A DNA stretch of 64,000 nucleotides from Actinomycetota bacterium (GTDB lineage Bacteria; Actinomycetota; UBA4738; JBBDHU01), in contig JBBDIK010000011.1 of NCBI GenBank assembly GCA_040880465.1, positions 103,843 through 167,842 of the forward strand. Direction: 5' to 3'. The first letter of the stretch is position 1; the number at the start of each line of letters is the position of its first letter. Positions 6,901-58,966 of this stretch are shown here, piece after piece. The notes beneath the pieces are model-generated. The model ran no database searches and was not told the DNA's origin. It was given only the letters and a program-made list of their open reading frames with translations. The position numbers and the translations under genes were made by a program.

Positions 6901-6957
6901 TCGCTCGCAGGCGTACGCGGCCGTCGCCCTTACAAAGGCCTTTCCGACTCCTTGCCC

Positions 6958-7737: not shown

Positions 7738-7768
7738 CGATCCTCCTCGAACATACCTCTGACCGGTG

Positions 7769-7833: not shown

Positions 7834-7851
7834 ATGCTACACTCCGTGCCC

Positions 7852-8283
7852 ATGGCCGACACCGACATCCTCGACCGGCTCCGCGAACGCGGCCTCCGCA
7901 TGACCCCCCAACGCCGGGCGATCGTGAGCGAGATCATGCGCTCGAAGGGGCATATCAACCCGGCCTCGATCACCCGGAAGGTGCAGACGCAGATGCCCGG
8001 CGTGAACGCGTCAACCGTCTACCGCACGCTCACGACCCTCGAAGAGATCGGCGTCATCTCCCACGCACACCTGGAATCCGGCGCCGAATACCACCGGGCC
8101 GAGGAGGCCGAGCACGTGCACCTGATGTGCTCGAACTGCGGTTCCGACGACGAGCTCTCCACGAAGGAAGCCGATGCCCTGGCCGGCCTGGTCCGGCGGC
8201 ACCGGGGGTTCGAGCCGGACCTCACGCACTTCGCGATCAGCGGCTCCTGCGCCCGCTGCAAGGAACGAGCCGGCCGACCCTAG
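7852..8283 (+). CDS. zur: Fur-family metalloregulator, Zur-like by gene context
   Basis: Fur DNA-binding helix region (MTPQRRAIV), HAH motif, and two CxxC pairs forming a structural Zn site. Alternative in-frame starts at 7828 (TTG) and 7834 (ATG). It is convergent with the metal ABC transporter. Confidence 0.75.
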   Translation: MADTDILDRLRERGLRMTPQRRAIVSEIMRSKGHINPASITRKVQTQMPGVNASTVYRTLTTLEEIGVISHAHLESGAEYHRAEEAEHVHLMCSNCGSDDELSTKEADALAGLVRRHRGFEPDLTHFAISGSCARCKERAGRP

Positions 8284-9921: not shown

Positions 9922-9933
9922 TGCACCCTCCGC

Positions 9934-22821: not shown

Positions 22822-23211
22822 TCACTCCGCCAGGCTCAGCCGCACCTCGGCCCGGCGCAGCTCGCGCTTGGCATCCTCGTCGCCTTCGCGGACGGCGACT
22901 TCGGCCCGGTCCAGGCGCTCACGCTCGGCCGCAGCGTCGATCTCGCTCTCCAGCGTCGCTTGATCGGCCATCACGTCGACGCGAGTTTCCTGGCCCTCAC
23001 TCGAGACGTGCATGAAACCCTCGTCGATCACCATCCGGACCTCGCCGCCCTCCTGGTGAACCCGGAGGGGACCGATCGCCATCCGGATCAGAAGCGGCGC
23101 GTGCCCCTGCTGGATGCCGACCTCGCCGTCGATCCCACGCGCGATCACCATCGTGGCGTCCCCCGACCAGACCTCACGTTCCGGCGTCACGACGTGCACC
23201 TCGACCGTCAA
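22822..23211 (-). CDS. atpC: F1 ATP synthase epsilon subunit
   Basis: It has an N-terminal beta-sandwich and a C-terminal helix and is the last gene of the atp operon. TTG start at 23211. Confidence 0.8.
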   Translation of the reverse strand: MTVEVHVVTPEREVWSGDATMVIARGIDGEVGIQQGHAPLLIRMAIGPLRVHQEGGEVRMVIDEGFMHVSSEGQETRVDVMADQATLESEIDAAAERERLDRAEVAVREGDEDAKRELRRAEVRLSLAE

Positions 23212-23244
23212 GTGTCAGACCCCTCGGTAGGGTGCGCAGCGAGG

Positions 23245-23318
23245 TGTTCTCGTAGCTCAAACGGATAGAGCGGGCCTCCCACGAAGGTCCAGATCTGGGT
23301 TCGAGTCCCAGCGGGAGC
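23245..23318 (+). tRNA. tRNA-like cloverleaf (anticodon CAC, Val) in the atpD-atpC spacer, on the strand opposite to the operon
   Basis: Acceptor GTTCTCG/CGGGAGC with 2 G-U pairs. D arm GCTC-AAACGGATA-GAGC. Anticodon arm GGCCT-CCCACGA-AGGTC. T arm CTGGG-TTCGAGT-CCCAG. Discriminator A, then CC. Position 33 is C instead of the near-universal U. Confidence 0.45.
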
Positions 23319-23489
23319 ACCCTTCCCGAGGGAAGGTCCAGCTCCAGGAGCGGCGAGAGGGAGGCGAGCCGCGTTCTCCCTGATGATAGGATCGCGTTCG
23401 TGGGAGGCCCACCGGATCCGTCCGGTTGAGCTACCCGAGAGAGCCGTCGCGAGGCGGCTCTCTTGCGTTCGCGCTCCCGCGACCGTCAT

Positions 23490-27517
<4,028 letters not shown>

Positions 27518-27536
27518 GGGGTTGCTCCTCGTTTCC

Positions 27537-28088
27537 TTAGGCGCCCTTGAGCTGGGCGTTCGCTTCTTCCAGGCGCGTGCGGATGGAGCCGTCGATGACC
27601 TCGTCACCGACGCGCGCCACCACCCCGCCGATGACCGACGGGTCGACCACGACCTTGACCTCGACGCTCCGGCCGACCGCAGCCGACAGCGCGTCGCGGA
27701 GGGCCGCCTTCTGCTTGGCGTCCAGTTCGACGGCGGTGCGGACCTCGGCCAGGGAGGACTGCCGCCGCTCGGCGGCGATCTGCGCCAGCTGCTCGATGAT
27801 CCGCTGCAGCTCCCGGGCCCGGCCCTGCTCGACCAGGAGCCCGAGCAGGTTGGCGGTACTCGGGTTCGTTTTGTCGCCTAGAACGTCCCCGATCACGGCC
27901 TGCTTCCGCTCGACCGGCAGCGCCGGATCCGTCAGGGCCTCCCGCAGCTCGGGGTTGGCCTCGATCGCCTTCGCGAACGCGTACAGCTCGCCCTCCACCT
28001 TGTCGAGGTCGCCCTCGGCATCGGCGACTGCGAACAGCGCCTCGGCGTAGCCGCGGATGACGGCGTCCTTAGTTGTCACTGCCGCCAT
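27537..28088 (-). CDS. atpH: ATP synthase delta (OSCP) subunit
   Basis: OSCP family. Overlaps atpF by 20 nt. Confidence 0.85.
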
Positions 28089-28698
28089 TCCCCGACGCGA
28101 CCTGCGCGATGTAGTCGTCGATCAACTTCTCGTGGGTTCCCCTGTCGAGCGACTGTCCGACCACCCGGCCGGCCAGGTCGACTGCGATGTCGCCCACCTG
28201 GGCCTTCAGCTCTTGCAGCGCCCGGTCGCGTTCGGCACGGATCTCCTCCTGCGCCTTGGCGACGGTGCCCTGCGCTTCCTGCTCGGCTTTCGCCTGGATG
28301 TCGGCCCTGAGCTGGTCCGCGGTCTTGCGGGCCTCCTCGATGATCCGGTTGGCCTCGTCGCGGGCGCCGGCGAGCTGCTCGCGGTAGTCGACGAGTTCCT
28401 TCTCGGCAGCCTTGCGGGTTTCCTCGGCCGACTCGAGCTGGCCCTGGATGGCCTCGCGCCGCTCGTCGAGCACCTTGTTCAGCTTCGGCATGACCCACTT
28501 CGCCATGAAGAAGAAGAGGATCCCGAAGGCGACCAGGCCGACCAGGAGTTCGTGCCATTGCGGATACAGGTCTTCCTTGGCGCTGACCTCCTGCTCGTGG
28601 CCCCCGCCTTCGACCACGGTCCCGGTCTCCTCTGTCGTGACCGGTTCAACCGTCGTCTCGCCCGTCTCGGTCTGGGCGACGATGTAGAGCGTCTGCAT
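28069..28698 (-). CDS. atpF: ATP synthase Fo subunit b
   Basis: Single TM helix plus a long charged coiled coil. Has a ~45-aa N-terminal extension. Confidence 0.85.
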   Translation of the reverse strand: MQTLYIVAQTETGETTVEPVTTEETGTVVEGGGHEQEVSAKEDLYPQWHELLVGLVAFGILFFFMAKWVMPKLNKVLDERREAIQGQLESAEETRKAAEKELVDYREQLAGARDEANRIIEEARKTADQLRADIQAKAEQEAQGTVAKAQEEIRAERDRALQELKAQVGDIAVDLAGRVVGQSLDRGTHEKLIDDYIAQVASGNGGSDN

Positions 28699-28708
28699 CG
28701 CTGCCTCC

Positions 28709-29749
<1,041 letters not shown>

Positions 29750-29753
<4 letters not shown>

Positions 29754-30181
29754 GAGGTGGCACTCTCCTCGGGCAGGTTCCACTGCTGACCGGCGGGGCC
29801 GGCGAGCAGTTTGAGTTCGAAGATTAGCAGGACGATCGTGGCCGGGATCACCGCCAGCGCGAACGCGAGCGGCGAGAACCAGCTCAGCGTGTTCAGCGCG
29901 AACATGATCGCCAGGATGATGCCGAGCCGCACGATGAATCCGCCCATCCCGACGGCGAAGACAGCCGTGAGCGACACGCGGGAGGCCCACGCCATCGCGT
30001 AGCCGTTCGCGACGAAGTTGGCGGCAACGATGAGGACGCCGATGGCCGCCGACCAGGCCGCGTTCAGATCGCCCAGCAGGAGGCCGGCGAGGAAGGCGAT
30101 AGCAACGGCGGGCGGTCCGTACGGCGCGACGCGCCGGATCAACTCGCGTTCAGGCTCAGTGCGCACTCTTCCCCTTGCCAT
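29750..30181 (-). CDS. atpI: ATP synthase protein I (AtpI)-like small membrane protein
   Basis: Four TM helices, in the position immediately upstream of atpB. Confidence 0.45.
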
Positions 30182-47472: not shown

Positions 47473-48477
47473 CTATGCCGAGGCAGGGGACGGACGTTCG
47501 GGCGACTTCTCCGTGCCCGGGCGCTCCGAGGCCGCCACCGGGTCGCCGAGCAGCCCTCCTTCCGGACGGTCGGTCCCCTCCCCCTCGCAGCGGAGGACTT
47601 CCTCGAACGAGGAGATAGCGATCTCGATCTGATCGCGGTCCGGGGGGCGGGTAGTGATCTTCTGGAGCCATAGCCCGGGGGCCATCAGCGCCCGCATGAC
47701 GAGCGAGCCGTGGAACTTCGCTCCCAACCGCAGCATCTCGTAGGAGACCGCGGCGATGGGGATGATCGCGATGACCCGCGAGGCGATCCGCCACCCCATC
47801 GGCAGTGGCGGGAACGCCGAGAACACCAGGATCGTGATGATCAGGATGATCAGCAGGAAGTTGGTGCCGCAGCGAACGTGCAACGTCGAGTACTCATCCA
47901 CGCGATCGGGGTCGAGCGGCGAGTCGTGTTCGTAGGCCGCGATCGTCTTGTGCTCGGCGCCGTGGTACTGGTACACGCGCCGGACCTCACCCATCAGGCC
48001 GATCGCCCATACGTAGCCGACGAGCAGCATCACGCGGAAGATCCCTTCGAGGATGTTCGCGCCGAGCCCGGTCCCGAGGAACGCCTTCTCCGCCCAACCG
48101 AACAACCACGCGGGACCGACGATGAAGACGCCGACGAACAGCGTGAGCGCGAGCGTCATCGCGAGCGCCATCCCGCCCTTGCCGAGTTGTTCCTCCTCCG
48201 GTTGCGCCTGATGCGTCGCGATGGTGAGCGCGCGGAAACCGATCGACATCGCCTGCCCAAGTGCGATCACGCCGCGCAACCCCGGCTTCGCGAGGGTCGG
48301 ATGCCGTTTGGCGACGGAGTCGATGTCGTGTGACTCGAGGTAGATCTGCTCGTCGGGCCTGCGAACGGCGACGGCCCAGTGGTCGCGGCCGCGCATCATC
48401 ACGCCCTCGATGAGAGCCTGTCCGCCGTAGAGGTGGTTCTGACGATCCGGTTCAGGCATCGGCCGGCGCGTCGGCAC
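47473..48477 (-). CDS. DUF1385-family membrane-associated protein (YqhQ-like)
   Basis: Conserved [11 protein letters not shown] motif and 4-5 TM helices. Confidence 0.7.
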
Positions 48478-48859
48478 CCTCGGCGGGCGCGTCCGTGGCC
48501 GTGTCGGTCGTCGGAGCGGTCGATCCGGTGGGATCCTCAGCCGCCTCCGGCGCGGGCGGCTGCGCGGCGTCGGCGGCGGCCGTAGCGGGGGCGAGAACCG
48601 GGAGCGGCGTCGCAGCCGCCCGCTTCTTGGCGGCCGCGGTACGCGCCTCGATCTCGGCCTTCTGCTTCTCGTAGCGCTTCTGGAAGCGTTCTACCCGGCC
48701 GCCGGTGTCCACCAGCTTCTGCTTGCCGGTGTAGAAGGGGTGGCAGTTCGAACAGATCTCGATGTGCAGCTCGGGAACGGTCGATCGGGTCTCGAACCGG
48801 TTCCCGCACGAGCACGTGACCGTGGTAACGACGTAGTCGGGGTGGATGTCCGTCTTCAT
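48452..48859 (-). CDS. rpmE: Ribosomal protein L31 (type A, CxxC zinc ribbon) with a ~65-aa low-complexity C-terminal extension
   Basis: CSCGN...[13 protein letters not shown]. After the canonical ~70 aa comes an A/P/T/D-rich tail. The stop overlaps the DUF1385 start region. Confidence 0.75.
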
Positions 48860-48895: not shown

Positions 48896-50575
48896 CTACG
48901 ACGGCGCCTTCGAGATCTCCTTGAGGAACTGCTCGTTCGACTTGGTCGCCCTGATCTTATCGATCAGCAGTTCAAGCGCCGCTCCCGCCTCGAGTGCGTG
49001 CAGCACCCGGCGGAGCCGCCAGACCAGCGCGAGTTCCTCGCTGGGCATCAGCAACTCTTCCTTGCGGGTACCGGACGCCTCGACGTTGATCGCGGGGAAG
49101 ATCCGCTTCTCGGAGAGCTGGCGGTCCAGGCGCAGTTCCATGTTGCCCGTCCCCTTGAACTCCTCGAAGATCCCCTCGTCCATCCGCGAACCCGTCTCGA
49201 CCAGAGCGCTCGCGATGATCGTGAGCGAGCCACCTTCCTCGATGTTCCGCGCGGCACCGAAGAACCGACGTGGCGGGTACAGCGCCGTCGAGTCGATGCC
49301 ACCGGACAGGATCTTGCCCGAAGCCGGCGCAGCCAGGTTGTACGCCCGCGCCAGCCGGGTGATCGAGTCCAGGATGATCGCGACGTCGGCACCGGTCTCG
49401 GCCAGACGCTTCGCCCGTTCGAGCACGAGTTCGGTCACCTGGATGTGTTGGTCCGGTGGCTTGTCGAAGGTCGAGTACACGACCTCGGCGGGCGTGACCG
49501 TCCGCTGCCAGTCGGTGACCTCCTCGGGCCGCTCGTCGACCAACAGGACGATGAGCTGGGTCTCAGGGCTCGACGTGATGATCCCGTTCGCGATGTTCTT
49601 GAGGACGGTGGTCTTCCCCGCCTTCGGCGGCGACACGACCATCCCGCGCTGACCCTTGCCGATGGGCGAGACCATGTCGATGATCCGACCGGTGACGTCG
49701 GTGGGGCTCGTCTCGAGGCTGAACCGCTCGCCCGGGAACAGCGGCGTCAGCTTGTCGAAGATCGGACGCTGCTGCGCCTCGTCGGGCGCCAACCCATTGA
49801 CGTTGTCGATCCGCAGGAGCGCGAAGTACTTCTCGCTGTCCTTCGGCCGCCGGACCGCACCGGTGACCGTGTCACCCTTGCGCAGCCCGAACCGACGGAC
49901 CTGCGACAGGGAGACATAGATGTCGCTCTGGCCCGGCAGGTACCCCGAGGTCCGTAGGAACCCGTACCCCTCAGGGAGGATGTCCAGGATCCCGACCTCG
50001 ACGGGGGCGTTAACGAGTTCTTCCTCACGGGCCTCCACCTCGCGCACGCGGCGTTCCTCGCGCTGACGGCGGCGGTCCTCGCGAGAGGCGCGTCCCCGAT
50101 TCCGGCCGCGGTCGCCACGGTCCCCACGGTCGCGGTTCCCCGGCTGATTCCCGCGGTCACCGCCCTGACGATCCCGATTCCCGCCGCGGTTCTGGTTCCC
50201 GCGGTCCAGGTTCCCGCGGTCCAGGCTCCCGCGATCCTGACTGTCGCCTCGGTCACGGGGCTGACCCTCCACCTTGGTGTCATCGCCGTTGTCGATGTCA
50301 TCGCCGTCGTCGGTTCCATCGCCGTCGGCCGCGTCGGCATCTTCCGACCCCTCCGGCTCCGGCCGCTTCTCCGCGCCCTTCGACTCGGCCTTCGGCTTCG
50401 CTGGGGCCCGTTTGCTGCCGTTCCCCTTGCCGTTCGCGGCGTCGACGATAGCGCCGATCAGCTCCTGCTTTCGCAGGCCGCGCGTGCCCTCCAAACCGAG
50501 GCCGTCCGCGATCTTCTGCAGTTCTGGCAAGACCTTCGCTTCGAGAGTGGACTCGTCCATCGTTCCGGCGCCCAT
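48896..50575 (-). CDS. rho: Transcription termination factor Rho with an actinobacterial-type RG/RD-rich N-terminal insertion
   Basis: Walker A GKAGKT, RNA-binding OB fold, and an RGG/RD-rich insert. ATG at 50575 with AGGAAGGAG RBS, directly after the tal stop. Confidence 0.9.
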
Positions 50576-50576
50576 G

Positions 50577-51239
50577 TCAGGCTCCTTCCTTGAGGTGCTG
50601 TTGCAATCCCTTCCAGTCCGCCATGAACTGGTCGATCCCACGGTCAGTCAGGGGATGTTTCACGAGCTTCGCGAACACGTCGTAGGGCATGGTCCCGATG
50701 TCGGCGCCGGCCTTCGCCGCGTCCACGACGTGCATGGGATGGCGGAGCGAAGCGGCCAGGACCTGGGTCTCGTAGCCCTGCACATGATAAATCTCGCAGA
50801 TCTCTCGCAACACCTGCATCCCGTCGGAGCCCACATCATCGAGGCGCCCCAGGAACGGGGACACGATGAACGCCCCGATCTCGGCGGCAAGGATCGCTTG
50901 GGCGGGAGAGAAGACGAGGGTCACGTTGATCTTGATGCCGTCATCGACGAGGCGCCGGCCGGCGGTCAGCCCATCGGGCGTCATCGGGACCTTCACGACG
51001 GCGTTCTCGGCTTTCTTCGCCAGCAGGAGGCCCTGCTCGTACATCTTGTCGGCCTCGAGTTCGGTGGTCTCCAAGGAGACGGGACCCCCGACCTCCTCGA
51101 GGATGACCTTCCACACCTCATCGGGATCGTGTCCTTCCCTAGCCACGAGCGTCGGGTTCGTGGTGACACCCGACAGGACGCCCCAGGCATTGATCTCACG
51201 GATCTCGTCGATGTTCGCGGTATCGAGGAACAGCTTCAT
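50577..51239 (-). CDS. tal: Transaldolase / fructose-6-phosphate aldolase (short TalC/FSA type)
   Basis: [14 protein letters not shown]-terminus and the Schiff-base Lys region. About 220 aa. Confidence 0.85.
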
Positions 51240-52207
51240 GCGGTGGTTCCCTCCATGGCCGGTGGCGACGACGCGGCATCGGAAACGGCTCGTTCGGTGG
51301 CGCGATCGACGATCAGGTCGATGATCGCGGTAAGCGATTGGTCCAGGCTGTAGTTCGGGATGACGGGGACGCCGTGCTGCAGCGCCTGGCTCTTGATGTA
51401 CTTCTGCACCTTGCGGATCTTGTCGAACCCTTCGATGTAGCGCTCGGCCGGGCGTGTGGACGTGTCGAACCCGCGCGCCACGAAGTGGCTGTGGTGCACA
51501 TCCTCATCCTCCACCGTCACGACGATATGGATCGGGAGGACCCGTTCGCCCCACACATCCAGATCGACGAAACCGGGAACGGCGTGCGCACCCTCGATGA
51601 TGAGGCTCGTACCCTCAACCGCGGCGCGTTCCAAGAGCGCACGGAGGCCGACCGAGACCGCCGCGGTCTGCTCGCGGAAACCGACGATCACCCGATCACC
51701 CGGGCGGAGCGGAGCCTCACGGAGCGCACTGTCGGCATCGAACGACGACGTGTACAGCGTGGGCATCAGGGCGCGGGAGAACAACCCACGCATGACCTCG
51801 CGGATCGCATCGGTGGCGACCACGCGGACGACGCCGAGGCGCGCGGCAAGCTGCGTGGCGATCGTCGACTTCCCGACTCCGGTCGCGCCGCCGATCAGCA
51901 AGACCATCGGTACGTCGAGCCGCTCGACCTCGCGCCACCGAAGGAAGTTCTTCGCGTAGCGTTCGCCGGCGACGTCGCGCAGGACCCCGACAGCGAGTTC
52001 GCTCAGCTCGTCGGAGGTGATGACCGCGACGCTGAGTTCGTGCAGCTTCTCTTCGATCGCCTCGGCCACCTGGTAGGAACGGAACGGGGAAAGGCCCGTC
52101 ACCATCATCCGGGACGCCATCAAGCCCTTCGAATAAGGCAACGAGGATTGCCCACCGGCCGACCCATCGGCGACCAGGACCTGTGAGCCGGAGCTGGGCG
52201 CCGTCAT
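51236..52207 (-). CDS. 2-phosphoglycerate kinase-like P-loop kinase
   Basis: Walker A LLIGGATGVGKSTIATQLAARLG, typical of the 2PGK family. Start overlaps the upstream stop (ATGA) and stop overlaps the tal start (ATGA). Confidence 0.55.
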   Translation of the reverse strand: MTAPSSGSQVLVADGSAGGQSSLPYSKGLMASRMMVTGLSPFRSYQVAEAIEEKLHELSVAVITSDELSELAVGVLRDVAGERYAKNFLRWREVERLDVPMVLLIGGATGVGKSTIATQLAARLGVVRVVATDAIREVMRGLFSRALMPTLYTSSFDADSALREAPLRPGDRVIVGFREQTAAVSVGLRALLERAAVEGTSLIIEGAHAVPGFVDLDVWGERVLPIHIVVTVEDEDVHHSHFVARGFDTSTRPAERYIEGFDKIRKVQKYIKSQALQHGVPVIPNYSLDQSLTAIIDLIVDRATERAVSDAASSPPAMEGTTA

Positions 52208-53532
52208 CGGACTCCGCCTCGCGCGAGCGCCAGGTCGATGGTCTCGTTCAGGTGCGACTCCACGTCCCGCTCTCCCTCGATCGCGACCGCGCGATTCTCC
52301 ATGAACACGACCTCCGCGCCCGCGTCGATCGCGGTGCGGCAGGCCACGTCTACCGCGGCGGCCTTGAGCTCCGTCAGGAGCACCTGATATCCGGCTGTTC
52401 GATCCATGTCTTCTCGCAATCGGGCTCGGTCCGCGAGGTGTGCGCTTCGGCCCACCACCCGGCATCCGGTTTCGGCTTCGAGGTGTGCGACGTGCCGTTC
52501 GGCGACGGCCTCAGGAGCCGTCGTGGCCAGGAACACCGTCTTCCCCTTGACATCGCCTGATGGATGCGGCTCGAAGTCTGTGACGACGAGCCGGGCATCC
52601 GCATGCCAGCGCGTGACGTGGGATGTGAGGGGGGAAAGGTTCTGGGCCCCGTTCGGGCTCTGAGCCATGGTAACAACCACCAGGTCCGAGCGCAATAGTC
52701 GATAGGGTCCCAGGTAGCCGCCCACGTATTCGGGCGGCGAGGAGGCAGGAACCACCAGGATGCCGGTGTCCCAAGGGATCGGAGGCACGGTGGAGCCACT
52801 GCCCTCAAGCACGATCAGCTCAGCCCCGGCGTTCACGGCCACCTCCGCAGCTTCCCGGGCGTTCGTCGCGTAGGCGGCCCCGGCCATCCCGCCCCCGGCC
52901 CGCCTGGCCCCAACGGTGGCGACGCCCGCCAGGAGTGCGTCCTCCAGGTAGTCCGATGCGGCATGCTGGCCCTCGTCCAAGAGCTGGAGGAGCCGCTCGA
53001 GTGTCACGCTCCCCGCCTCGGCGAACTGGGGCGCGGCCGGTCCGCCCCGTCCCATCGCAACCACGATGGGCCGGAGGCCGCGATCCGCAGCAGCGCGAGC
53101 GAGCTGCCCGCCGATCGCGGTCTTGCCGGTGCGCTTCCCGGTGCCGATCACGGCGATCGTCGGGACGGGCAGCGGCGGTCCATGGACGGGCGGGTCGAAC
53201 CGGAAGTCCGATCCCAGGTACGGCACCCCCGCAGCAAGCGCGACACCGATCAAGCCCATCCGCTCGCGGTAACCGAGGATCGGTTCGTCGGACAGATCCA
53301 GAACGGCTTCCGCCCGGACGCGCTCGAGAGCGGCGCGAAGCCCGCCGGCCTGATCGTCCCCGGCCTCGAAGGTCGTGACCCCGAGATCGGGGGGCGCATC
53401 CGGATCGACCTTCTCGGTCCCCCCGAGGAACAGGGCAGCCACGACCTCATGGCCACGGCTGCGTGCGGCTGCGAGGCCCCAACGCGTCACCGACGGATAG
53501 TGCTCTCCGTCGACCAAGACGAGAACCTTCAA
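52204..53532 (-). CDS. Cyclic 2,3-diphosphoglycerate synthetase-like protein
   Basis: N-terminal MKVLVLVDGEHYP motif and an internal P-loop GTGKRTGKT, about 440 aa, as in archaeal cDPG synthetases. TTG start with AAGGAG RBS. Assignment is from recalled motifs only. Confidence 0.5.
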   Translation of the reverse strand: MKVLVLVDGEHYPSVTRWGLAAARSRGHEVVAALFLGGTEKVDPDAPPDLGVTTFEAGDDQAGGLRAALERVRAEAVLDLSDEPILGYRERMGLIGVALAAGVPYLGSDFRFDPPVHGPPLPVPTIAVIGTGKRTGKTAIGGQLARAAADRGLRPIVVAMGRGGPAAPQFAEAGSVTLERLLQLLDEGQHAASDYLEDALLAGVATVGARRAGGGMAGAAYATNAREAAEVAVNAGAELIVLEGSGSTVPPIPWDTGILVVPASSPPEYVGGYLGPYRLLRSDLVVVTMAQSPNGAQNLSPLTSHVTRWHADARLVVTDFEPHPSGDVKGKTVFLATTAPEAVAERHVAHLEAETGCRVVGRSAHLADRARLREDMDRTAGYQVLLTELKAAAVDVACRTAIDAGAEVVFMENRAVAIEGERDVESHLNETIDLALARGGVR

Positions 53533-53607
53533 TCCCCCGGCTCCTTACTCTGATGGTGTGCGCGGCTCCGGATACGGGGCGCCGGTCAGGGCGTCGGCCC
53601 CGGTCCT

Positions 53608-54408
53608 TCAGTCCCCTCGTTCACGGACGCCCACCGGGTCTTCGGTAGTAAGCGCCTCCAATTCCCGGAAGTACTGCGCGCCGGTCGATAGCGAGAAGTG
53701 CGCCAGCATGGTCTCGCCGCCGAAGGGGAACTTCCGGAAGATCTTGACCTCGTCCCCGTCGTACTGCAGCACGTTGTAGCACGGCTTGGTGTACCCGCGC
53801 AGGCGCAGGGACGCGACCGTCCCCGCGTTCGCGACCCAGAGGTTCTCCAAGTGCCACACGTACGGCACGTGCTTGTGACCGGTCAGCACGATGTTCACCC
53901 CGGAGGTGATCAACACCTCCAGCAAGTCGCCGGCGTCGTTGACCACGCTGCGCTCGCGTCCCGTGCCCGGCACGGGAAGCAGGTGGTGGTGGATCGTGAA
54001 GATCTTGAGGTCGGCGGACTCGGCGAACTGCTCACGGATCCAGCCGTACTGCTCGCGGCCGATCTGGCCCTCGTTGATGTCGGGCTCGCTGGAGTCGGTA
54101 CCGACGATCCGAACGCCCCCGACATCCGCCGACCACCGACGCGGGCCCACCAGTTCCTCGAAGTGGACGTAGCCGACGTTGCGCGCGTCGTGATTGCCGG
54201 TGACCGTGTGGACGGGGGCTTCGATGCGCTCCCGATAGGCCATCCAGTTCTTGTACTCCTGGCGGTAGCCTTCGTTCGTGAGATCGCCCGTGCAGACCAC
54301 GACATCGGGCTGCATCTCGTTCAGCTCGGCGATGACGCGATTCATGAGGTTCGGGACGAAGTAGGGGGACCCGACGTGTGGATCGGAGATGTGGGCGATG
54401 GTGACCAC
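53608..54408 (-). CDS. Calcineurin-like metallophosphoesterase
   Basis: Motifs DPH, GDLT, GNHD and GHKH. GTG start. Confidence 0.8.
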   Translation of the reverse strand: MVTIAHISDPHVGSPYFVPNLMNRVIAELNEMQPDVVVCTGDLTNEGYRQEYKNWMAYRERIEAPVHTVTGNHDARNVGYVHFEELVGPRRWSADVGGVRIVGTDSSEPDINEGQIGREQYGWIREQFAESADLKIFTIHHHLLPVPGTGRERSVVNDAGDLLEVLITSGVNIVLTGHKHVPYVWHLENLWVANAGTVASLRLRGYTKPCYNVLQYDGDEVKIFRKFPFGGETMLAHFSLSTGAQYFRELEALTTEDPVGVRERGD

Positions 54409-54492: not shown

Positions 54493-55788
54493 CTACGCGG
54501 CGGCGACGGCCGGGCGGTGAAGCAGGGCAAGGACCTCGTCGATCCGCTTGTCCGTCTCGCCCGGCCAGTCCGGGGCTTGGACGCGGAACGGACCGGTCGC
54601 AAGGTGCATCGCGCATAACGCCTCACGCCAAGCCAGTTCTTCATCCCCCCCTCCGCGGAGGTGCTCGAGAAGCGCCTTGCGCAGCATGACTCGGTACGCG
54701 AGGGGTCGTCCCTGCGCCTCGGGGGCGTACGCGTGCAGGACGCGAAGATGCGCCAGCATGTTCGCCGCGTCCATCAAGGGATCGCCCGGACCGCCGTCCT
54801 CCAGGTCGATCAGCCCGATCGAGAACTCGTCGTCCACGAAGATCTGACCCTCGTACAGATCGCCATGGACGGTGAAGGTTTCGGCTAGGGGGCGCGCCGC
54901 GCGTTCCGCCAGCTCGTGGTAGGCGTCACGGATCTCGGCGTACCGGTGCGGCCGCAGATGCGCGAGGAGGCGGCCGCTCAGCCGGATCGAGGCCGCTGCG
55001 TCGCCGAGGTCAGGTGCCCCCAGCCACCGAACCCGCGCGAGCCGCTCAAGCAGCCCGACCAGCCGGTCGGGATCAGGAAGGGCGCCGCCGGACTCGATCA
55101 GGTCACGCAGGCAGGTCCCGCCGATCTCGGGGAACAGGGCCACGCCTCGCAGCCCCTCCGCGACCCGTGGGCGCACCATCCGAATACCCGTCTTCGCGTA
55201 GCTGCGATGGGCGTCGAAGATGCGGTCGAACGCGTCGTCGCCCACGACCTTTCCGTACAGGGTCTCCCGGTGCCTCCCCAGCCCGGCAACGGTGTAGCGG
55301 AACGCCGCGCGCTGCCCTGGGCGGTACCGCAGCGGCGTCACCGAGATCGCCGCGGGCCGGCGGACGTCGGACGCGTCGCGCACCGTCGGCCCGTGTGCGG
55401 CATCGGGGAGGCCGGCCAGCACCGGGTCGTACGGGAACACCCAGGCGGTCACCCCGTCGATCTCTTCCACGGGGTCGCTGACGCCGAAGCGGGAGCCGAA
55501 CTCGGGTGACGGCGCTACGACGTCGACGCTGCGCGCGCGGGTTCGCAGGCAGACCGTGAGCAGCCGCACCGCTCCCGATCCGGAAACGGCCTGCACGCGG
55601 AACCGCACCGTTAGCGCCCGGCCCGGGCGATAGAGGGCCTGAAGCACCCGCACATCGGTCGCGTGCCACCCGCGCCGGCCGAGGAACCGTTCGAGCAGAT
55701 CCCCCGACGGCTCGCGCCGGAAGAGGGCCCCTGCGAGCGGGAGGTCGGGGTCGACGGGCGGGGGCGGGACCGCCAGCGGTTGATCCAT
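54493..55788 (-). CDS. Aminoglycoside-phosphotransferase-fold kinase, maltokinase (Mak/Pep2)-like
   Basis: Catalytic region VHGDLYEGQIF...IDLEDGGPGDPL resembles the HGDLHLGQ...IDFEGEP region of maltokinases. About 430 aa. Confidence 0.55.
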   Translation of the reverse strand: MDQPLAVPPPPVDPDLPLAGALFRREPSGDLLERFLGRRGWHATDVRVLQALYRPGRALTVRFRVQAVSGSGAVRLLTVCLRTRARSVDVVAPSPEFGSRFGVSDPVEEIDGVTAWVFPYDPVLAGLPDAAHGPTVRDASDVRRPAAISVTPLRYRPGQRAAFRYTVAGLGRHRETLYGKVVGDDAFDRIFDAHRSYAKTGIRMVRPRVAEGLRGVALFPEIGGTCLRDLIESGGALPDPDRLVGLLERLARVRWLGAPDLGDAAASIRLSGRLLAHLRPHRYAEIRDAYHELAERAARPLAETFTVHGDLYEGQIFVDDEFSIGLIDLEDGGPGDPLMDAANMLAHLRVLHAYAPEAQGRPLAYRVMLRKALLEHLRGGGDEELAWREALCAMHLATGPFRVQAPDWPGETDKRIDEVLALLHRPAVAAA

Positions 55789-55793
55789 GTCGC

Positions 55794-56600
55794 TTACTTG
55801 GAAGCGTGGGTCCCGGTCGGCGAGTCCTGAGCGGTATCCGGACAGGAGTTGTCAGCCGAGTTGTATGCGGAGTTGTTCGCGGAATTGCCCGGCGAGTCGA
55901 ACCCGGAGTCCCCGATCGAGTCGGCTCCCGAGTTCTTGTAGGAATCCCCTCCGGTCTTGTGGACCGAGTCCCCGCCCGAGTCGTAGGCCGAGTCGTGGGC
56001 GGAGTTGCCCGGCGAGTCCTTGCCCGAATCGCCGATGGAGTCGGGACCCGAGTCCTTGTTCGAGTTGGTGGTCGTGTCGTGGGCCGAGGTTCCCGCCGAG
56101 TCGTACTTGGAGTTCAGCTCGGAGTTCCCGATGGAGTCGACGCCGGAGTCCCCGATCGAGTCGGGTCCTGAGTCCTTGTTCGAGTTGCCCGCAGAGCATT
56201 CGGCCGACTTGCCGGCGGAGTTGTACTTCGAGTTCACCTCGGAGTTGCCGGGGGAATCGAAGTTGGAGTCGCCCTTGGAGTTCGCGCCGGATTCCTTGGC
56301 CGAACGACCGGCCGAGGCCTTCTTGCGGTTGTCCCGGTTGTGGTTGCCCCGAGCGTGACCGCCGGGCGCGTCGTCACCGGCACCGACGGCATCGTCCATC
56401 CCGTCCCTGCCGAGATCTTCCTCAGGAACCGTTACGTCCTGGCTCTCGCCCTCGACGTCCACCGTGACGGTGTCGCCCGTGACGTCACCTTCGGCCAGCG
56501 CCGGTGTCGTCCCCACGGCCAGGGTGACCGCCGAGCCCCCGACCAAGACCGTCAGAACCTTGCGCTTCCTGTTCCTCCGAAGCTTCTGGATCGTGTCCAT
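55794..56600 (-). CDS. Secreted repetitive protein rich in D/S/G/N (SGxDSxGNS-type degenerate repeats)
   Basis: Signal peptide, then imperfect tandem repeats. The unit NSNKDSGPDSIGDSG... occurs twice about 39 aa apart. GGAGAAGG RBS before the ATG at 56600. Confidence 0.5.
   Translation of the reverse strand: MDTIQKLRRNRKRKVLTVLVGGSAVTLAVGTTPALAEGDVTGDTVTVDVEGESQDVTVPEEDLGRDGMDDAVGAGDDAPGGHARGNHNRDNRKKASAGRSAKESGANSKGDSNFDSPGNSEVNSKYNSAGKSAECSAGNSNKDSGPDSIGDSGVDSIGNSELNSKYDSAGTSAHDTTTNSNKDSGPDSIGDSGKDSPGNSAHDSAYDSGGDSVHKTGGDSYKNSGADSIGDSGFDSPGNSANNSAYNSADNSCPDTAQDSPTGTHASK
55860..56330 (-). repeat. Intragenic tandem-like DNA repeats (period ~118 bp, plus shorter GAGTC-rich sub-repeats)
   Basis: GAGTCGGGACCCGAGTCCTTGTTCGAGTT at 56040 recurs nearly identically at 56158. 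GAGTCC/GAGTTG motifs recur throughout. Confidence 0.6.
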
Positions 56601-56722
56601 CCCCTTCTCCTTTATGAAGCCGATGACCTCTCCAGTGTCGGCACTGCGCCGCAACGGGCTGAGGCGAAACGGCCAGGAGGGGGCTAGCTATCGGGGATGG
56701 AAATCGGTCTGGCCCGGAATGA

Positions 56723-58966
56723 CTATTCCTCCATGACCACCCGCACGTCCCCTTCGCGGGAGAGCAGCGAGAAGGACGTGATCTCCCCCTCACGTCGGAA
56801 GACGAGGGAGACGGTTCCGCCGTTCACCTGCAGGTTGCGGAGTTCAACGGTATTCAGCCAGGAAGGCAGGTGGGGCATGTGGATCGTCAGCCGGTTCTCG
56901 TGGGCCCTGGCGGAGACCCCGAGCATGGCTTGCAGCATGAGGAACGGGGAACCCGCGGCCCATGCCTGCGGAGAACACGCGACCGGGTAGCTCACCGGCC
57001 GGTTCGGGCTCCGCCGCGTGAAGCCGCAGAACAGCTCGGGCAGCCGCATGTAGTCGGCGTGGATCGCGGCGTCGAACAGCGCCGTGGACACGCGGTTGGT
57101 CCCGCGCACGAAGCCGTAGCGCTTGAGCCCCGCCGCGATCAGGGCGTTGTCGTGCGGCCAAACGGAGCCGTTGTGGTAGCTCATGGGGTTGTACGCCGCT
57201 CCGGTCTTGGAGAGCGTCCGGATCCCCCACCCGGAGAACATGTCCGGGGCCAGGAGCCGCTTCGCGACGAGCTTGGCCTGCTCGGGGTCGGCGATCCCGC
57301 AGTAGAGGGCGTGCCCCGGGTTCGACACGATCGTGCGAACCTGGCGCTTGTCCTTGTCGAGGGCGCCGGCATAGTACCCCTCGTCCTCCATCCAGAAGAC
57401 CTCATTGAATCGGCGCTTCAGTTCCTGGGCTTCGACGCGTAGCCGGGCGGCCGTCTCTTGGTCGCCCAACGCATCGAACACGTCGGCCATCCGGGTCTTC
57501 GCGAGGTATACATACGCCTGGACCTCGACCAGGGCGATCGGCGGATCGGCGAGCCGCCCGTCCGCGTGCGTCACGGAGTCCCACGAGTCCTTCCACCCCT
57601 GGTTGCGGATGCCTCGCGGGGAGCGGGTCTTGTACTCGACGAAGCCGTCACCGTCCATATCGCCGTAGGTGTCGATCCAGTCGAGCGCCGCCTTCGCGGC
57701 GGGGAGCATCCGAAGCGCGAACTCGCGGTCGGCCGTCCACCGGAAGTACTGCGCGAACAGGATCAGGTACCACGGCGTGGCATCCACGGAGCCGAAGTAG
57801 GGCGAGTGCGGGACGATGCCGGCACCAGCCAGCTCCCCGTGCCGGATCTCGTGCAGGATCTTCCCCGGGTTCTCGTCGCGCCAGGGATCGTCCTCCTTCC
57901 CCTGGTAACGCGCCAACAGCTCCAGCGCCTCGCGGGCCGGGCGCGGGTTGACCATGAGCATCTGGTGCGCGGCGATCAGCGCGTCCCGCCCGAAGATCGT
58001 GACGTACCAGGGGATCCCCGCCGCGAGGACGCTCCCCTCCTCGGTCCTGGTGTAGAGCGCCCGCATGTCCCGCAGGCTGCGCGACAGGAGCTGGTTGAAC
58101 ACCTCGTTGTCGGTGACGATCTGCGTGGACTCGCGCTCCCATTCCTCGTAGGAGCGGCGGAGGGTGTGCACCGCGGCGTCGAATTCGCGTGTCGGCGGCT
58201 CCTCGTCGGCCACTACAGCCTCGACGGTGAACGCGACCAGCTTCGTCTGGCCTGCTCCCAGTCGCAGCTTGAACGTAACGTTTACCAGGTCGCCCGCGAG
58301 TTCGACGCGGGTCGGCTCGGAGGCGAACGCAACCCGGGTCTCGCGACGGACCCCATCGCGCCCGACGTAGCCGAACAGCACCTCCTTGCCCTCGATGACG
58401 GGTGGCTCGACCTCCCCCCGCTCCTCGTCGAACATGTGACGAACCTCGAAGATGTCCAGGAAGTCCGCCGCGAACGCGAACTCCAGATCCAGGGACACGG
58501 GGTGCGCGTTGTAGTTCTTCACGCGGACGCGTTCGAAGAGTTTGCCGTTGATCGCGCGGATGCGACGGATGTTGAGCGTTTGCTGCGGAACGGCAAGGAC
58601 CCCCCACTCGTACAGGTCCGGGTTGGTGAGGTCGACGTGAGACATGTAGGCCCGCTCCGCCGACGAAGAGAGCAGCACCGGCTCCCGGCCGGAGATCTTC
58701 ATGGAGAAATGCGAGAGGAACCGGGTATCCCGGTAGTAGAGCCCGAGTCCGTAGTCGCGGCGATCGGTCAGGTTCCCCCTCGTGTCCGAGTAGAGGAACA
58801 GGTCCCCTTCCTTGACCGCGAGGACCTTGCTGCCGAGCTCGGTGACGAGGACGGGAACCGCTTCTTCGCGGGGTGCTTCGGCAGGTGGACCTTCGGGGTC
58901 GGGCTTGGCGTTCACGGTCGCGATCGATCCGGGGCACGCATAGCCGGGTGACGGGCGGCCCGGCAC
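56723..58966 (-). CDS. Amylo-alpha-1,6-glucosidase family protein (glycogen-debranching-enzyme-like, GDE_C with N-terminal domain)
   Basis: Large (alpha/alpha)6-barrel glycoside hydrolase signature regions (e.g. GIPWYVTIFGRD, NQGWKDSWD, VWPHDN). The exact start is uncertain. Confidence 0.75.
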   Translation of the reverse strand: MPGRPSPGYACPGSIATVNAKPDPEGPPAEAPREEAVPVLVTELGSKVLAVKEGDLFLYSDTRGNLTDRRDYGLGLYYRDTRFLSHFSMKISGREPVLLSSSAERAYMSHVDLTNPDLYEWGVLAVPQQTLNIRRIRAINGKLFERVRVKNYNAHPVSLDLEFAFAADFLDIFEVRHMFDEERGEVEPPVIEGKEVLFGYVGRDGVRRETRVAFASEPTRVELAGDLVNVTFKLRLGAGQTKLVAFTVEAVVADEEPPTREFDAAVHTLRRSYEEWERESTQIVTDNEVFNQLLSRSLRDMRALYTRTEEGSVLAAGIPWYVTIFGRDALIAAHQMLMVNPRPAREALELLARYQGKEDDPWRDENPGKILHEIRHGELAGAGIVPHSPYFGSVDATPWYLILFAQYFRWTADREFALRMLPAAKAALDWIDTYGDMDGDGFVEYKTRSPRGIRNQGWKDSWDSVTHADGRLADPPIALVEVQAYVYLAKTRMADVFDALGDQETAARLRVEAQELKRRFNEVFWMEDEGYYAGALDKDKRQVRTIVSNPGHALYCGIADPEQAKLVAKRLLAPDMFSGWGIRTLSKTGAAYNPMSYHNGSVWPHDNALIAAGLKRYGFVRGTNRVSTALFDAAIHADYMRLPELFCGFTRRSPNRPVSYPVACSPQAWAAGSPFLMLQAMLGVSARAHENRLTIHMPHLPSWLNTVELRNLQVNGGTVSLVFRREGEITSFSLLSREGDVRVVMEE

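What the first reader, a model, noticed from the sequence alone, without database searches (positions are those of the whole stretch)
51236..53532. Archaeal-type cyclic 2,3-diphosphoglycerate synthesis pair (2PGK-like plus cDPG-synthetase-like) in a bacterial chromosome
Two translationally coupled genes encode a P-loop kinase with the 2-phosphoglycerate kinase signature (LLIGGATGVGKSTIA...LAARLG) and a ~440-aa protein. The latter begins MKVLVLVDGEHYP and carries an internal GTGKRTGKT P-loop. Both features match my recollection of cyclic 2,3-diphosphoglycerate synthetases of hyperthermophilic methanogens. Together the two enzymes convert 2-phosphoglycerate via 2,3-bisphosphoglycerate to cDPG, a thermoprotective and phosphate-storage solute known essentially only from methanogenic archaea. 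Finding the pair intact and coupled next to transaldolase in a high-GC actinobacterium suggests an undescribed bacterial cDPG (or related phosphoglycerate-derived solute) pathway, possibly acquired horizontally.
Basis: partly seen in the sequence, partly recalled or inferred. Interest (0 to 1): 0.75.

Follow-up and report, generated by a model that had tools for sequence, protein, structure and literature searches.

The report
Bacterial cyclic diphosphoglycerate synthesis operon
An uncultivated soil-type actinobacterium carries intact, coupled genes for the two enzymes that make cyclic 2,3-diphosphoglycerate, a solute so far reported only from heat-loving methanogenic archaea. The same operon sits at the same chromosomal spot in hundreds of related bacterial genomes, but nobody has tested it.

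Summary
On the minus strand, a 442-aa gene (52204-53532) and a 323-aa gene (51236-52207) overlap by ATGA.

The first gene is a full-length homologue of the crystallised Methanothermus fervidus cDPG synthetase (E=4e-96, 39.7% identity). Ten of the 11 mappable ligand-binding or catalytic residues are retained. The second gene matches the 2-phosphoglycerate kinase model end to end (E=3e-87) but falls below NCBI's equivalog cut-off.

The pair is the core of a four-gene module: metallophosphoesterase, cDPGS, 2PGK and a short transaldolase. The transaldolase is also ATGA-coupled. In uncultivated Actinomycetota MAGs the module lies in the housekeeping thrB-rho interval, in relatives down to 42% identity (Aquicultoria, Geothermincolia). 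The esterase-cDPGS-2PGK trio recurs in two unrelated genomic contexts.

Recent horizontal acquisition is not supported. Codon composition is native, the position is fixed, and the window gene sits inside a bootstrap-supported actinobacterial clade.

The family is not methanogen-specific. Thermococcales, Bacillota and Cloacimonadota MAGs also carry it, and public pipelines already name this exact protein "2,3-diphosphoglycerate synthetase".

I found no paper on a bacterial cDPG pathway. I therefore class it as a new, untested member of a known kind. The linked esterase is a candidate for the unidentified cDPG hydrolase.

The parts
53608..54408 (-). Calcineurin-type metallophosphoesterase (266 aa, soluble). 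It is the first gene of the conserved module and a candidate cDPG / 2,3-BPG hydrolase (inference).
   Evidence: Pfam Metallophos, E=4.9e-20. All metal-binding motifs are present: D9xH11, G41D42, G71NHD74, H140-142 and G177HKH180, and there is no hydrophobic segment. The closest structures are Rv0805 and GpdQ, E~1e-11. It lies directly upstream of cDPGS in 59/69 bacterial loci. It is also linked to cDPGS-2PGK in two unrelated contexts, L088 and L086. Across 66 orthologues the metal ligands and many Arg/Lys residues are >=95% conserved.
53533..53607 (-). 75-bp spacer between the esterase and cDPGS, carrying the cDPGS ribosome-binding site (AAGGAG, 8 nt before the TTG).
   Evidence: Sequence read. 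No terminator-like or promoter-like site and no Rfam match. In L087 and L088 the two genes abut or overlap.
52204..53532 (-). Cyclic 2,3-diphosphoglycerate synthetase homologue (442 aa; CpgS_N domain plus P-loop core).
   Evidence: PDB 8ORK/8ORU, E=4e-96 over residues 2-436. Identity is 39.7%. E40, K41, K133, R134, K137, T138, D194, T338, E388 and K390 correspond to the M. fervidus ligand-binding/catalytic residues; E305 is replaced by Q291 (residue list from PMC10690619). The AF2 model has pLDDT 85 and its best Foldseek hit is 8oru, E=5.5e-42, TM 0.72. The identical public protein carries precomputed PF27272 CpgS_N.
52204..52207 (-). ATGA overlap: the cDPGS stop (TGA) and the 2PGK start (ATG).
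   Evidence: Sequence.
51236..52207 (-). 2-phosphoglycerate kinase homologue (323 aa; N-terminal ~95-aa domain plus P-loop NMP-kinase-like core).
   Evidence: NCBIfam NF003259 '2-phosphoglycerate kinase', E=3.2e-87, 292.7 bits (cut-off 343), covering profile positions 11-297 of 306. Walker A motif GGATGVGKST. The AF2 model has pLDDT 85, and its C-terminal ~220 residues match UMP/CMP and adenylate kinases. It lies directly downstream of cDPGS in 71/75 bacterial loci. JGI names its homologues 2-phosphoglycerate kinase.
51236..51239 (-). ATGA overlap: the 2PGK stop and the transaldolase start.
   Evidence: Sequence (GCATGAAGCTG).
50577..51239 (-). Short (220-aa) transaldolase, the last gene of the module.
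   Evidence: TIGR00875, 266 bits, above the 245.95 cut-off. The best PDB hits are the T. maritima, B. subtilis and T. thermophilus transaldolases (E=1e-74 to 5e-68), not E. coli FSA (E~1e-31). It follows 2PGK in 66/71 loci. In L088 a GlpX fructose-1,6-bisphosphatase takes its place.
56723..58966 (-). GDE_N_bis / MGH1-like / GDE_C glycoside hydrolase. It is often, but not always, found between thrB and the module, so its membership is uncertain.
   Evidence: Pfam hits. A homologue is present upstream in 22/53 loci with enough flank.

Best explanation
The locus is a chromosomal operon of an uncultivated, high-GC Actinomycetota bacterium.

**Gene order.** The four genes are metallophosphoesterase, cDPG synthetase (CpgS), 2-phosphoglycerate kinase and a short transaldolase. 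The last three are translationally coupled through ATGA overlaps.

**Proposed mechanism.**
1. 2PGK phosphorylates 2-phosphoglycerate with ATP to give 2,3-bisphosphoglycerate.
2. CpgS uses a second ATP to phosphorylate the 2-phosphate.
3. The 3-phosphate then attacks, releasing Pi and closing the cyclic pyrophosphate, cDPG. This is the mechanism proposed for the M. fervidus enzyme.

**Shown here.** Orthology, an intact active site, gene coupling and conserved synteny.

**Inferred.**
- The product is cDPG.
- The upstream dinuclear metallophosphoesterase opens the cyclic pyrophosphate or dephosphorylates 2,3-BPG. That would return carbon and phosphate to lower glycolysis and gluconeogenesis.
- In these mostly non-thermophilic bacteria cDPG serves as a phosphate, carbon or energy reserve and/or a stress solute, rather than as a thermoprotectant.

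**Evolution.** The module is an old, vertically inherited part of this actinobacterial lineage, not a recent import.
For: **cDPGS identity**
- Full-length match to the crystallised enzyme, E=4e-96.
- Ten of 11 mappable ligand-binding or catalytic residues are identical. These include the trans-subunit E/K pair that binds 2,3-DPG and the K-R pair that stabilises the transition state.
- The same residues are invariant or >=90% conserved in 54 diverse family representatives.
- The predicted fold matches 8oru, TM 0.72.

**2PGK identity**
- End-to-end match to the 2PGK profile, E=3e-87.
- P-loop kinase fold.

**Functional linkage**
- ATGA overlaps between the genes.
- 2PGK lies next to cDPGS in 71/75 bacterial loci, the esterase in 59/69 and the transaldolase in 66/71.
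- The esterase-cDPGS-2PGK trio recurs outside the thrB-rho context: with GlpX FBPase in L088, and with a CBS protein and a tandem esterase in a Cloacimonadota MAG.
- Roberts' review describes cDPG as a branch of gluconeogenesis. It also reports a biochemically detected cDPG hydrolase, for which it names no gene (PMC1224877).

**Vertical inheritance**
- Native GC3.
- The same slot within argS-lysA-hom-thrC-thrB...rho-rpmE-prfA in relatives of 42-68% identity, including Aquicultoria and Geothermincolia.
- cDPGS divergence tracks the divergence of flanking genes.
- NJ bootstrap is 94% for the actinobacterial clade and 89% for the window's sub-clade.
Against: - No biochemical data exist for any bacterial member, and every close relative found is a MAG.
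- The 2PGK score is below NCBI's equivalog cut-off (292.7 against 343). NCBI often calls these proteins hypothetical.
- Thermococcales all carry a cDPGS homologue. To my knowledge cDPG has not been reported among their solutes, so having the gene does not prove that cDPG accumulates.
- E305, an adenosine contact in the archaeal enzyme, is Q here.
- The esterase role rests on gene context only. It is missing from 10/69 loci, and the archaeal loci examined have no linked esterase or 2PGK.
- The hydrolase activity described in M. thermautotrophicus was membrane-bound, whereas this esterase looks soluble.
- The transaldolase may simply be the housekeeping copy.
Confidence: 0.7

Rival explanations
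1. The pair is a recent horizontal acquisition from a methanogenic or other archaeon.
For: The only characterised family members are archaeal. Archaea are not monophyletic in the tree, and bacterial and archaeal groups interleave (Bacillota MAGs near Thermococcales, Cloacimonadota near Theionarchaea). Inter-domain transfers have therefore occurred somewhere in the family.
Against: - GC and GC3 of both genes equal those of neighbouring housekeeping genes.
- The module is in the same thrB-rho slot in dozens of genomes at 42-68% identity.
- The window protein is only 39-43% identical to any archaeal sequence found.
- It nests in an actinobacterial clade with 94% bootstrap.
- Archaeal loci do not have the cDPGS-2PGK adjacency, so the operon could not have been imported as such.
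Confidence: 0.05
2. The enzymes are active, but the physiological end-product is 2,3-bisphosphoglycerate or a transient low-level cDPG pool, not an accumulated solute. Such a pool might act as the cofactor of dPGM-type phosphoglycerate mutase or as a regulator. CpgS might even run mainly in reverse to regenerate ATP.
For: - M. fervidus cDPGS is reported to be reversible (PMC1224877).
- Thermococcales carry the gene without cDPG being a known solute there (plus my own knowledge of the solute literature).
- A linked hydrolase-type enzyme and gluconeogenic or pentose-phosphate partners (transaldolase, GlpX) suggest flux rather than static accumulation.
Against: Two ATP-consuming steps encoded in a tightly coupled, strongly conserved operon are an expensive route to a cofactor needed in trace amounts. 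CpgS is as conserved as 2PGK and almost never lost from the pair.
Confidence: 0.17
3. The bacterial clade has diverged in substrate. The kinase and synthetase would then act on another phosphorylated hydroxy-acid and make a different cyclic pyrophosphate or phosphoanhydride.
For: - Identity to the characterised enzymes is only about 40%.
- 2PGK scores below the equivalog threshold.
- The 2PGK superfamily includes kinases with other substrates, for example mevalonate-3-phosphate 5-kinase, NF008996.
Against: All residues contacting 2,3-DPG in the crystal complex (E45 and K46 in trans, K145, R146, and the Mg ligands T150 and D208) are retained. They are near-invariant across the whole family. The best kinase model by far is 2PGK (293 bits against 70 bits for the mevalonate-3-phosphate kinase model).
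Confidence: 0.06
4. Assembly or binning artefact: an archaeal fragment has been joined to a bacterial contig.
For: The source is a metagenome-assembled genome.
Against: - The genes overlap bacterial neighbours by 4 bp.
- They lie between thrB-side genes and rho/rpmE/prfA on one contig.
- The same arrangement is seen in more than 70 independent assemblies, including contigs over 1 Mb.
Confidence: 0.01

Closest known systems
Cyclic 2,3-diphosphoglycerate synthetase of Methanothermus fervidus (PDB 8ORK/8ORU; De Rose et al. 2023, PMC10690619)
   Same: Same length class and two-domain architecture (CpgS_N plus P-loop core). Identity is 39.7% over the full length. The Walker A motif GTGKRxGKT is shared, as are the 2,3-DPG, Mg and ATP-binding residues. 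The predicted fold superposes at TM 0.72.
   Different: - The host is bacterial, high-GC and probably mesophilic.
- E305 is replaced by Q.
- The gene is translationally coupled to 2PGK and preceded by a metallophosphoesterase. The archaeal loci examined show neither neighbour within 8 kb.
- There are no activity data.
2-phosphoglycerate kinase of methanogens (NCBIfam NF003259 / COG2074)
   Same: End-to-end profile match (E=3e-87). It has the P-loop NMP-kinase-like core plus an N-terminal extra domain, and the same predicted role upstream of cDPGS.
   Different: It scores below the curated equivalog cut-off (292.7 against 343 bits). No 2PGK structure exists for comparison. The ATP-cone assignment of the N-terminal domain is only a weak hit (E=0.009).
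Class-III cyclic-nucleotide phosphodiesterase-type metallophosphoesterases (Rv0805, GpdQ)
   Same: The upstream gene shares the dinuclear-metal motifs and fold family.
   Different: Similarity is only distant (E~1e-11). It forms a tightly conserved orthologous group, 54-84% identical across the loci, and that group is specifically linked to cDPGS-2PGK. The substrate is unknown. A cDPG-hydrolase role is my inference.
Thermococcales cDPGS homologues (PDB 9SXB, Thermococcus-type)
   Same: Same family, E=6e-91 to the window protein.
   Different: They form a separate clade. They show that family membership extends to organisms where cDPG is not a recognised solute, which is a caution against equating gene presence with solute accumulation.

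Membership tests
Cyclic 2,3-diphosphoglycerate synthetase (CpgS; PF27272 CpgS_N + P-loop core) | Full-length sequence homology to the biochemically and structurally characterised M. fervidus enzyme | tested here: met
   phmmer E=4e-96, query residues 2-436 against chain residues 5-452. Global identity is 39.7%.
Cyclic 2,3-diphosphoglycerate synthetase (CpgS; PF27272 CpgS_N + P-loop core) | Family-specific N-terminal domain (CpgS_N) | tested here: met
   The identical public protein P0001 carries precomputed PF27272. The alignment to 8ORK covers the N-terminal 127 residues. The local Pfam copy lacks this model, so hmmscan itself found nothing.
Cyclic 2,3-diphosphoglycerate synthetase (CpgS; PF27272 CpgS_N + P-loop core) | Walker A motif and the 2,3-DPG / Mg / ATP-binding residues (E45, K46, K145, R146, K149, T150, D208, E305, T353, E404, K406) | tested here: met
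   Ten of 11 are identical (E40, K41, K133, R134, K137, T138, D194, T338, E388, K390); E305 is Q291. The residue list comes from PMC10690619. P335, also named in the paper, could not be mapped: position 335 of the chain is F.
Cyclic 2,3-diphosphoglycerate synthetase (CpgS; PF27272 CpgS_N + P-loop core) | Three-dimensional fold | tested here: met
   The AF2 model has pLDDT 85.4 and pTM 0.87. Foldseek's top hit is 8oru, E=5.5e-42, TMq 0.72. The next hit is LpxK at 1e-7, the same second-best fold reported in the paper.
Cyclic 2,3-diphosphoglycerate synthetase (CpgS; PF27272 CpgS_N + P-loop core) | ATP-dependent conversion of 2,3-DPG to cDPG; cDPG present in cells | not testable with these tools
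   This needs an enzyme assay, or 31P-NMR or LC-MS.
2-phosphoglycerate kinase (NF003259 / COG2074) | Profile match at the curated equivalog threshold | tested here: inconclusive
   E=3.2e-87 and 292.7 bits over profile positions 11-297 of 306, but the cut-off is 343 bits. It is the best-scoring model by a wide margin over other kinases.
2-phosphoglycerate kinase (NF003259 / COG2074) | P-loop (Walker A) small-molecule kinase core | tested here: met
   GGATGVGKST motif. The AF2 model (pLDDT 85) matches UMP/CMP, adenylate and shikimate kinases.
2-phosphoglycerate kinase (NF003259 / COG2074) | N-terminal ATP-cone-like domain | tested here: inconclusive
   PF03477 is only E=0.0088. The model shows a folded ~95-residue N-terminal domain, and some homologues carry a precomputed PF03477 hit.
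2-phosphoglycerate kinase (NF003259 / COG2074) | Phosphorylation of 2-PG to 2,3-BPG | not testable with these tools
   This needs an enzyme assay. The only supporting context is conserved coupling to cDPGS (71/75 loci).
Calcineurin-like metallophosphoesterase (PF00149) | Pfam match above threshold and the five metal-binding motifs | tested here: met
   73.2 bits against a cut-off of 21.5. The motifs DxH, GD, GNHD, H and GHxH are all present and >=95% conserved in 66 orthologues.
cDPG hydrolase (activity described in M. thermautotrophicus; the review read names no gene) | Hydrolysis of cDPG to 2,3-DPG | not testable with these tools
   Only gene linkage supports this. The described activity was membrane-bound, whereas this protein has no hydrophobic segment.
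Short (subfamily 5) transaldolase / FSA family (TIGR00875) | Model match above the curated cut-off; closer to transaldolases than to FSA | tested here: met
   266.1 bits against 245.95. PDB: T. maritima transaldolase E=1.2e-74 against E. coli FSA E~1e-31.

The most novel reading that the evidence does not exclude
Uncultivated, mostly soil and groundwater Actinomycetota, together with some other bacterial phyla, may run a complete cDPG cycle. In this reading 2PGK and CpgS build the cyclic pyrophosphate. The tightly linked, highly conserved dinuclear metallophosphoesterase would be the long-missing cDPG hydrolase that reopens it. The pool would be wired to gluconeogenesis and the pentose-phosphate pathway (transaldolase or GlpX) as a phosphate, carbon and energy reserve or a desiccation or osmotic solute. 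cDPG would then be a widespread bacterial metabolite rather than a curiosity of hyperthermophilic methanogens.
Probability: 0.3. Interest if true: 0.7.

Novelty: new member of a known kind. Interest (0 to 1): 0.5.

Why it matters
cDPG is treated in the literature as an extremolyte exclusive to (hyper)thermophilic methanogens. Its synthetase has been used as a genomic marker of thermophily (PMC10690619; PMC7554672).

An intact, operon-encoded and strongly conserved pathway in several hundred species-level bacterial genomes would change that picture. Most of these genomes come from ordinary soils and groundwater.

- It would widen the known distribution of the compound.
- It would point to a storage or stress role unrelated to heat.
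- It would supply new mesophilic enzymes for the biotechnological production of cDPG, which is currently limited to the M. fervidus enzyme.
- It would give a concrete gene candidate for cDPG hydrolase.

It remains a genomic prediction. The proteins are already auto-annotated, and Thermococcales show that carrying the gene need not mean accumulating the solute.

Tried and rejected
1. **Local HMM libraries.** Pfam-A and NCBIfam scans of the 442-aa protein gave no family, only a sub-threshold DUF1611 P-loop hit. It reflects only the absence of a cDPGS model in those copies; the PDB search and precomputed PF27272 settle the matter.
2. **PDB search with 2PGK.** No relative was found, because no structure exists.
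3. **Genome scan.** The 54-sequence alignment was too diverse to derive search patterns. It was repeated with 18 closer sequences.
4. **Literature.** 'cpgS' was swamped by 'CpGs'. No paper links cDPG to Actinobacteria.
5. **The listing of cluster members on 10 diverse representatives.** It gave almost no taxonomy, apart from one Cloacimonadota cluster.
6. **First NJ tree of 85 sequences.** It was star-like and uninformative. A first bootstrap run timed out. A faster version gave support for shallow clades only, so deep branching and the direction of any ancient transfer stay unresolved.
7. **AFDB Foldseek.** Intended to list cultured carriers, but unavailable.
8. **Signals around the operon.** Rfam and promoter/terminator scans found nothing.
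9. **Neighbouring genes.** The APH-like gene and the repeat protein between the GDE-like gene and the esterase have no counterpart in related loci. They were dropped from the module.
10. **9SXB.** I considered that it might be a bacterial cDPGS, which would have reduced novelty. It is Thermococcus-type.


Full report
**Observation**

All genes discussed are on the minus strand. The ORF listing gives a 442-aa ORF at 52204..53532 and an ORF ending at 51236.

The 442-aa ORF starts with TTG at 53532, 8 nt after an AAGGAG Shine-Dalgarno sequence. It begins MKVLVLVDGEHYP.

Reading the DNA shows ...GGA GTC CGA TGA CGG.... The cDPGS stop TGA (52206-52204) therefore overlaps an ATG (52207-52205), which opens a 323-aa protein: MTAPSS...LLIGGATGVGKSTIATQLAARLG....

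The stop of that gene overlaps the ATG of a 220-aa gene (50577..51239) in the same ATGA fashion.

The quoted motifs, sizes, coupling and transaldolase neighbour are all real.

**What the two proteins are**

The local Pfam-A and NCBIfam copies have no model for the 442-aa protein, but the Protein Data Bank does.

- It aligns from residue 2 to 436 with the Methanothermus fervidus cDPG synthetase (8ORK/8ORU), E=4e-96.
- It aligns with a second deposited cDPGS (9SXB), E=6e-91.
- Global identity to the M. fervidus enzyme is 39.7%.

The structure paper lists the residues that bind 2,3-DPG, Mg2+ and ADP or stabilise the transition state (PMC10690619). E45 and K46 come from the partner subunit; the others are K145, R146, K149, T150, D208, E305, T353, E404 and K406.

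- Ten of these map to identical residues here: E40, K41, K133, R134, K137, T138, D194, T338, E388 and K390.
- E305 is Q291.
- The same positions are invariant or >=90% conserved in an alignment of 54 diverse family representatives.

An AlphaFold2 model (pLDDT 85.4, pTM 0.87) finds 8oru as its best PDB match, E=5.5e-42, TM 0.72. LpxK is a distant second, the same ranking the authors reported for the crystal structure.

The 323-aa protein matches NCBIfam NF003259 '2-phosphoglycerate kinase' end to end, E=3.2e-87 and 292.7 bits. This is below the curated 343-bit equivalog threshold. That shortfall presumably explains why NCBI names many of its relatives 'hypothetical protein' while JGI calls them 2-phosphoglycerate kinase.

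No 2PGK structure exists. Its model (pLDDT 85) shows an N-terminal ~95-residue domain followed by an NMP-kinase-like P-loop core.

**The module is larger than the pair**

A 266-aa calcineurin-type metallophosphoesterase lies 75 bp upstream (53608..54408).

- All dinuclear-metal motifs are intact and there is no membrane segment.
- Its nearest structures, Rv0805 and GpdQ, are only distant relatives, E~1e-11.

The downstream coupled gene is a short transaldolase. It is closest to the Thermotoga, Bacillus and Thermus enzymes rather than to E. coli FSA.

**Distribution and synteny**

The exact 442-aa protein is already in NCBI as 'MAG: 2,3-diphosphoglycerate synthetase [Actinomycetota bacterium]'. 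More than 7,300 90%-identity clusters are related to it, and the closest are Actinomycetota MAG proteins.

The family comprises 227 50%-identity clusters at E<=1e-30.

Two patterns were used, so this corresponds to at least about 250 genomes.

- About 75 of the best 80 loci are uncultivated Actinomycetota from soil, groundwater and sediment catalogues.
- These include Candidatus Aquicultor (class Aquicultoria) and Anoxymicrobiaceae (class Geothermincolia).
- The rest are a Bacillota MAG and four methanogen genomes (two Methanobrevibacter, Methanovirga and a Methanopyri MAG), which are 39-43% identical to the window protein.

Three long contigs with called genes show this order: argS-lysA-hom-thrC-thrB-(SDR)-esterase-CpgS-2PGK-transaldolase-rho-rpmE-DUF1385-DivIVA-prfA-prmC-sua5. 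This is the classic actinobacterial housekeeping cluster with the four-gene module inserted between thrB and rho.

A tblastn survey of 75 non-redundant bacterial loci gave these counts:

| Gene and position | Loci with it / loci with enough flank |
|---|---|
| 2PGK directly downstream of cDPGS | 71/75 |
| Transaldolase after 2PGK | 66/71 |
| Esterase upstream of cDPGS | 59/69 |
| rho | 55/58 |

Two of the four 2PGK 'misses' are loci where cDPGS itself is frameshifted.

The arrangement holds down to 42% cDPGS identity, in Aquicultor.

The trio also recurs in different surroundings.

- In L088 the order is esterase (56% identical)-CpgS-2PGK-GlpX fructose-1,6-bisphosphatase, next to cytochrome c maturation genes.
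- In a Cloacimonadota MAG a Metallophos/5'-nucleotidase gene precedes CpgS-2PGK. A CBS protein and a tandem-domain homologue of the esterase follow.
- In the four archaeal loci cDPGS has neither 2PGK nor an esterase within 8 kb.

**Origin**

- GC and GC3 of the module genes (GC3 0.80-0.90) equal those of the flanking genes.
- Across loci, cDPGS identity to the window protein rises and falls with that of the neighbouring genes. Spearman correlation is 0.79 with transaldolase and 0.46 with thrB.
- In a neighbour-joining tree with 200 bootstraps, the Actinomycetota-context sequences other than Aquicultor form a split with 94% support. The window's sub-clade has 89%.
- Methanogens (83%), Thermococcales (100%) and the Bacillota/Clostridia MAGs (100%) are separate groups. 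Archaeal monophyly gets 8%, and deep branches are unresolved.

Recent acquisition from archaea is therefore not supported. Ancient inter-domain transfer somewhere in the family is likely, but its direction cannot be told from these data.

**Mechanism**

By homology to the characterised pathway (PMC10690619; PMC12136491; PMC1224877), the steps are:

1. 2PGK converts 2-PG and ATP to 2,3-BPG.
2. CpgS transfers the gamma-phosphate of a second ATP to the 2-phosphate.
3. The 3-phosphate then attacks, releasing Pi and closing the cyclic pyrophosphate.

The retained active site makes the same chemistry the most likely one here.

Roberts' review describes cDPG as a side-branch of gluconeogenesis. It also reports a cDPG hydrolase, detected only as an activity, that returns carbon and phosphate.

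A dinuclear metallophosphoesterase is chemically suited to open a pyrophosphate ring. Its tight linkage is consistent with that role. So is its high conservation: 54-84% identity, with metal ligands and many Arg/Lys residues >=95% conserved in 66 orthologues.

The recurrent gluconeogenic or pentose-phosphate partner (transaldolase or GlpX) also fits a synthesis-plus-remobilisation cycle.

This last part is inference from context, not a demonstrated function.

**Cautions**

- The last protein search showed that 9SXB is a Thermococcus-type enzyme. All Thermococcales, including Pyrococcus furiosus, carry a homologue. To my knowledge these organisms are not reported to accumulate cDPG, so gene presence may not equal solute accumulation.
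- 2PGK misses the equivalog cut-off.
- No cultured bacterial carrier appeared among the 80 loci returned.

**Novelty and verdict**

The families are known, and automated pipelines already give this protein the right name. However, the searched literature contains no report of a bacterial cDPG pathway, and recent papers state that the compound is exclusive to hyperthermophilic methanogens.

I class the finding as a new, untested member of a known kind.

One is the module's conserved four-gene architecture at a fixed housekeeping position across deep Actinomycetota lineages. The other is a candidate gene for cDPG hydrolase.

Interest is moderate (0.5). The finding is directly testable by heterologous expression. 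It would be surprising to specialists in compatible solutes, but it is not mechanistically new.

Noticed in passing
window 56723-58966 (-): A 747-aa glycoside hydrolase with GDE_N_bis, MGH1-like (mannosylglycerate-hydrolase-like) and GDE_C domains lies between thrB and the module. A homologue occupies the same place in 22/53 related loci. A hydrolase of glycerate-containing solutes next to a phosphoglycerate-derived solute pathway may not be a coincidence.
   Followed up: partly
window 55794-56654 (-): A 286-aa ORF with high GC3 and no Pfam hit. It has an N-terminal hydrophobic segment followed by a long Asp/Ser/Asn/Gly-rich degenerate repeat (...DSxGxSxxNS...). No counterpart was seen in related loci.
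   Followed up: no
window 54493-55788 (-): A 431-aa APH-type phosphotransferase-fold protein lies immediately upstream of the esterase. tblastn found no homologue in any of the 85 related loci, so it is specific to this genome or its closest relatives.
   Followed up: partly
window 48452-48859 (-) and 48896-50641 (-): Ribosomal protein L31 carries a ~65-residue Ala/Pro/Thr/Asp-rich C-terminal extension (135 aa against about 70 in relatives). Rho has a long Arg/Gly/Asp-rich insertion after its N-terminal domain.
   Followed up: no
window 19464-21458 (-): A 664-aa ORF with high GC3 and no Pfam match at E<=1e-5. It lies between a murA-like EPSP_synthase-family gene and an Rce1-like CAAX protease gene.
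   Followed up: no
L086 (Cloacimonadota MAG JAGXLO010000023.1) 4260-10232: cDPGS-2PGK is flanked by a Metallophos/5'-nucleotidase gene on one side. On the other side are a CBS-domain protein and a 499-aa protein made of two tandem copies of the module's esterase domain.
   Followed up: partly
L088 (ENA metagenome contig) 5198-9220: Esterase-CpgS-2PGK is followed by a GlpX-type fructose-1,6-bisphosphatase instead of a transaldolase, with 4-bp gene overlaps. This is a second link to gluconeogenesis.
   Followed up: partly
L064 and L072 (Microflora Danica MAG contigs), cDPGS at 8001-~9350: The cDPGS match breaks off about two-thirds of the way through the gene although 2PGK follows. These are probably frameshifts from long-read assembly errors rather than pseudogenes.
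   Followed up: no
PDB 9SXB; proteins P0398-P0509: The third deposited cDPGS structure is Thermococcus-type (100% match to an unnamed metagenomic protein, 82% to T. aggregans). Every Thermococcales genome listed carries a homologue, although these organisms are not known for cDPG.
   Followed up: partly
window 22822-29990 (-): A complete F1Fo ATP synthase operon (a, b, delta, alpha, gamma, beta and epsilon seen by Pfam). The alpha-subunit ORF is unusually long (588 aa), so it has an N-terminal extension or a mis-set start.
   Followed up: no
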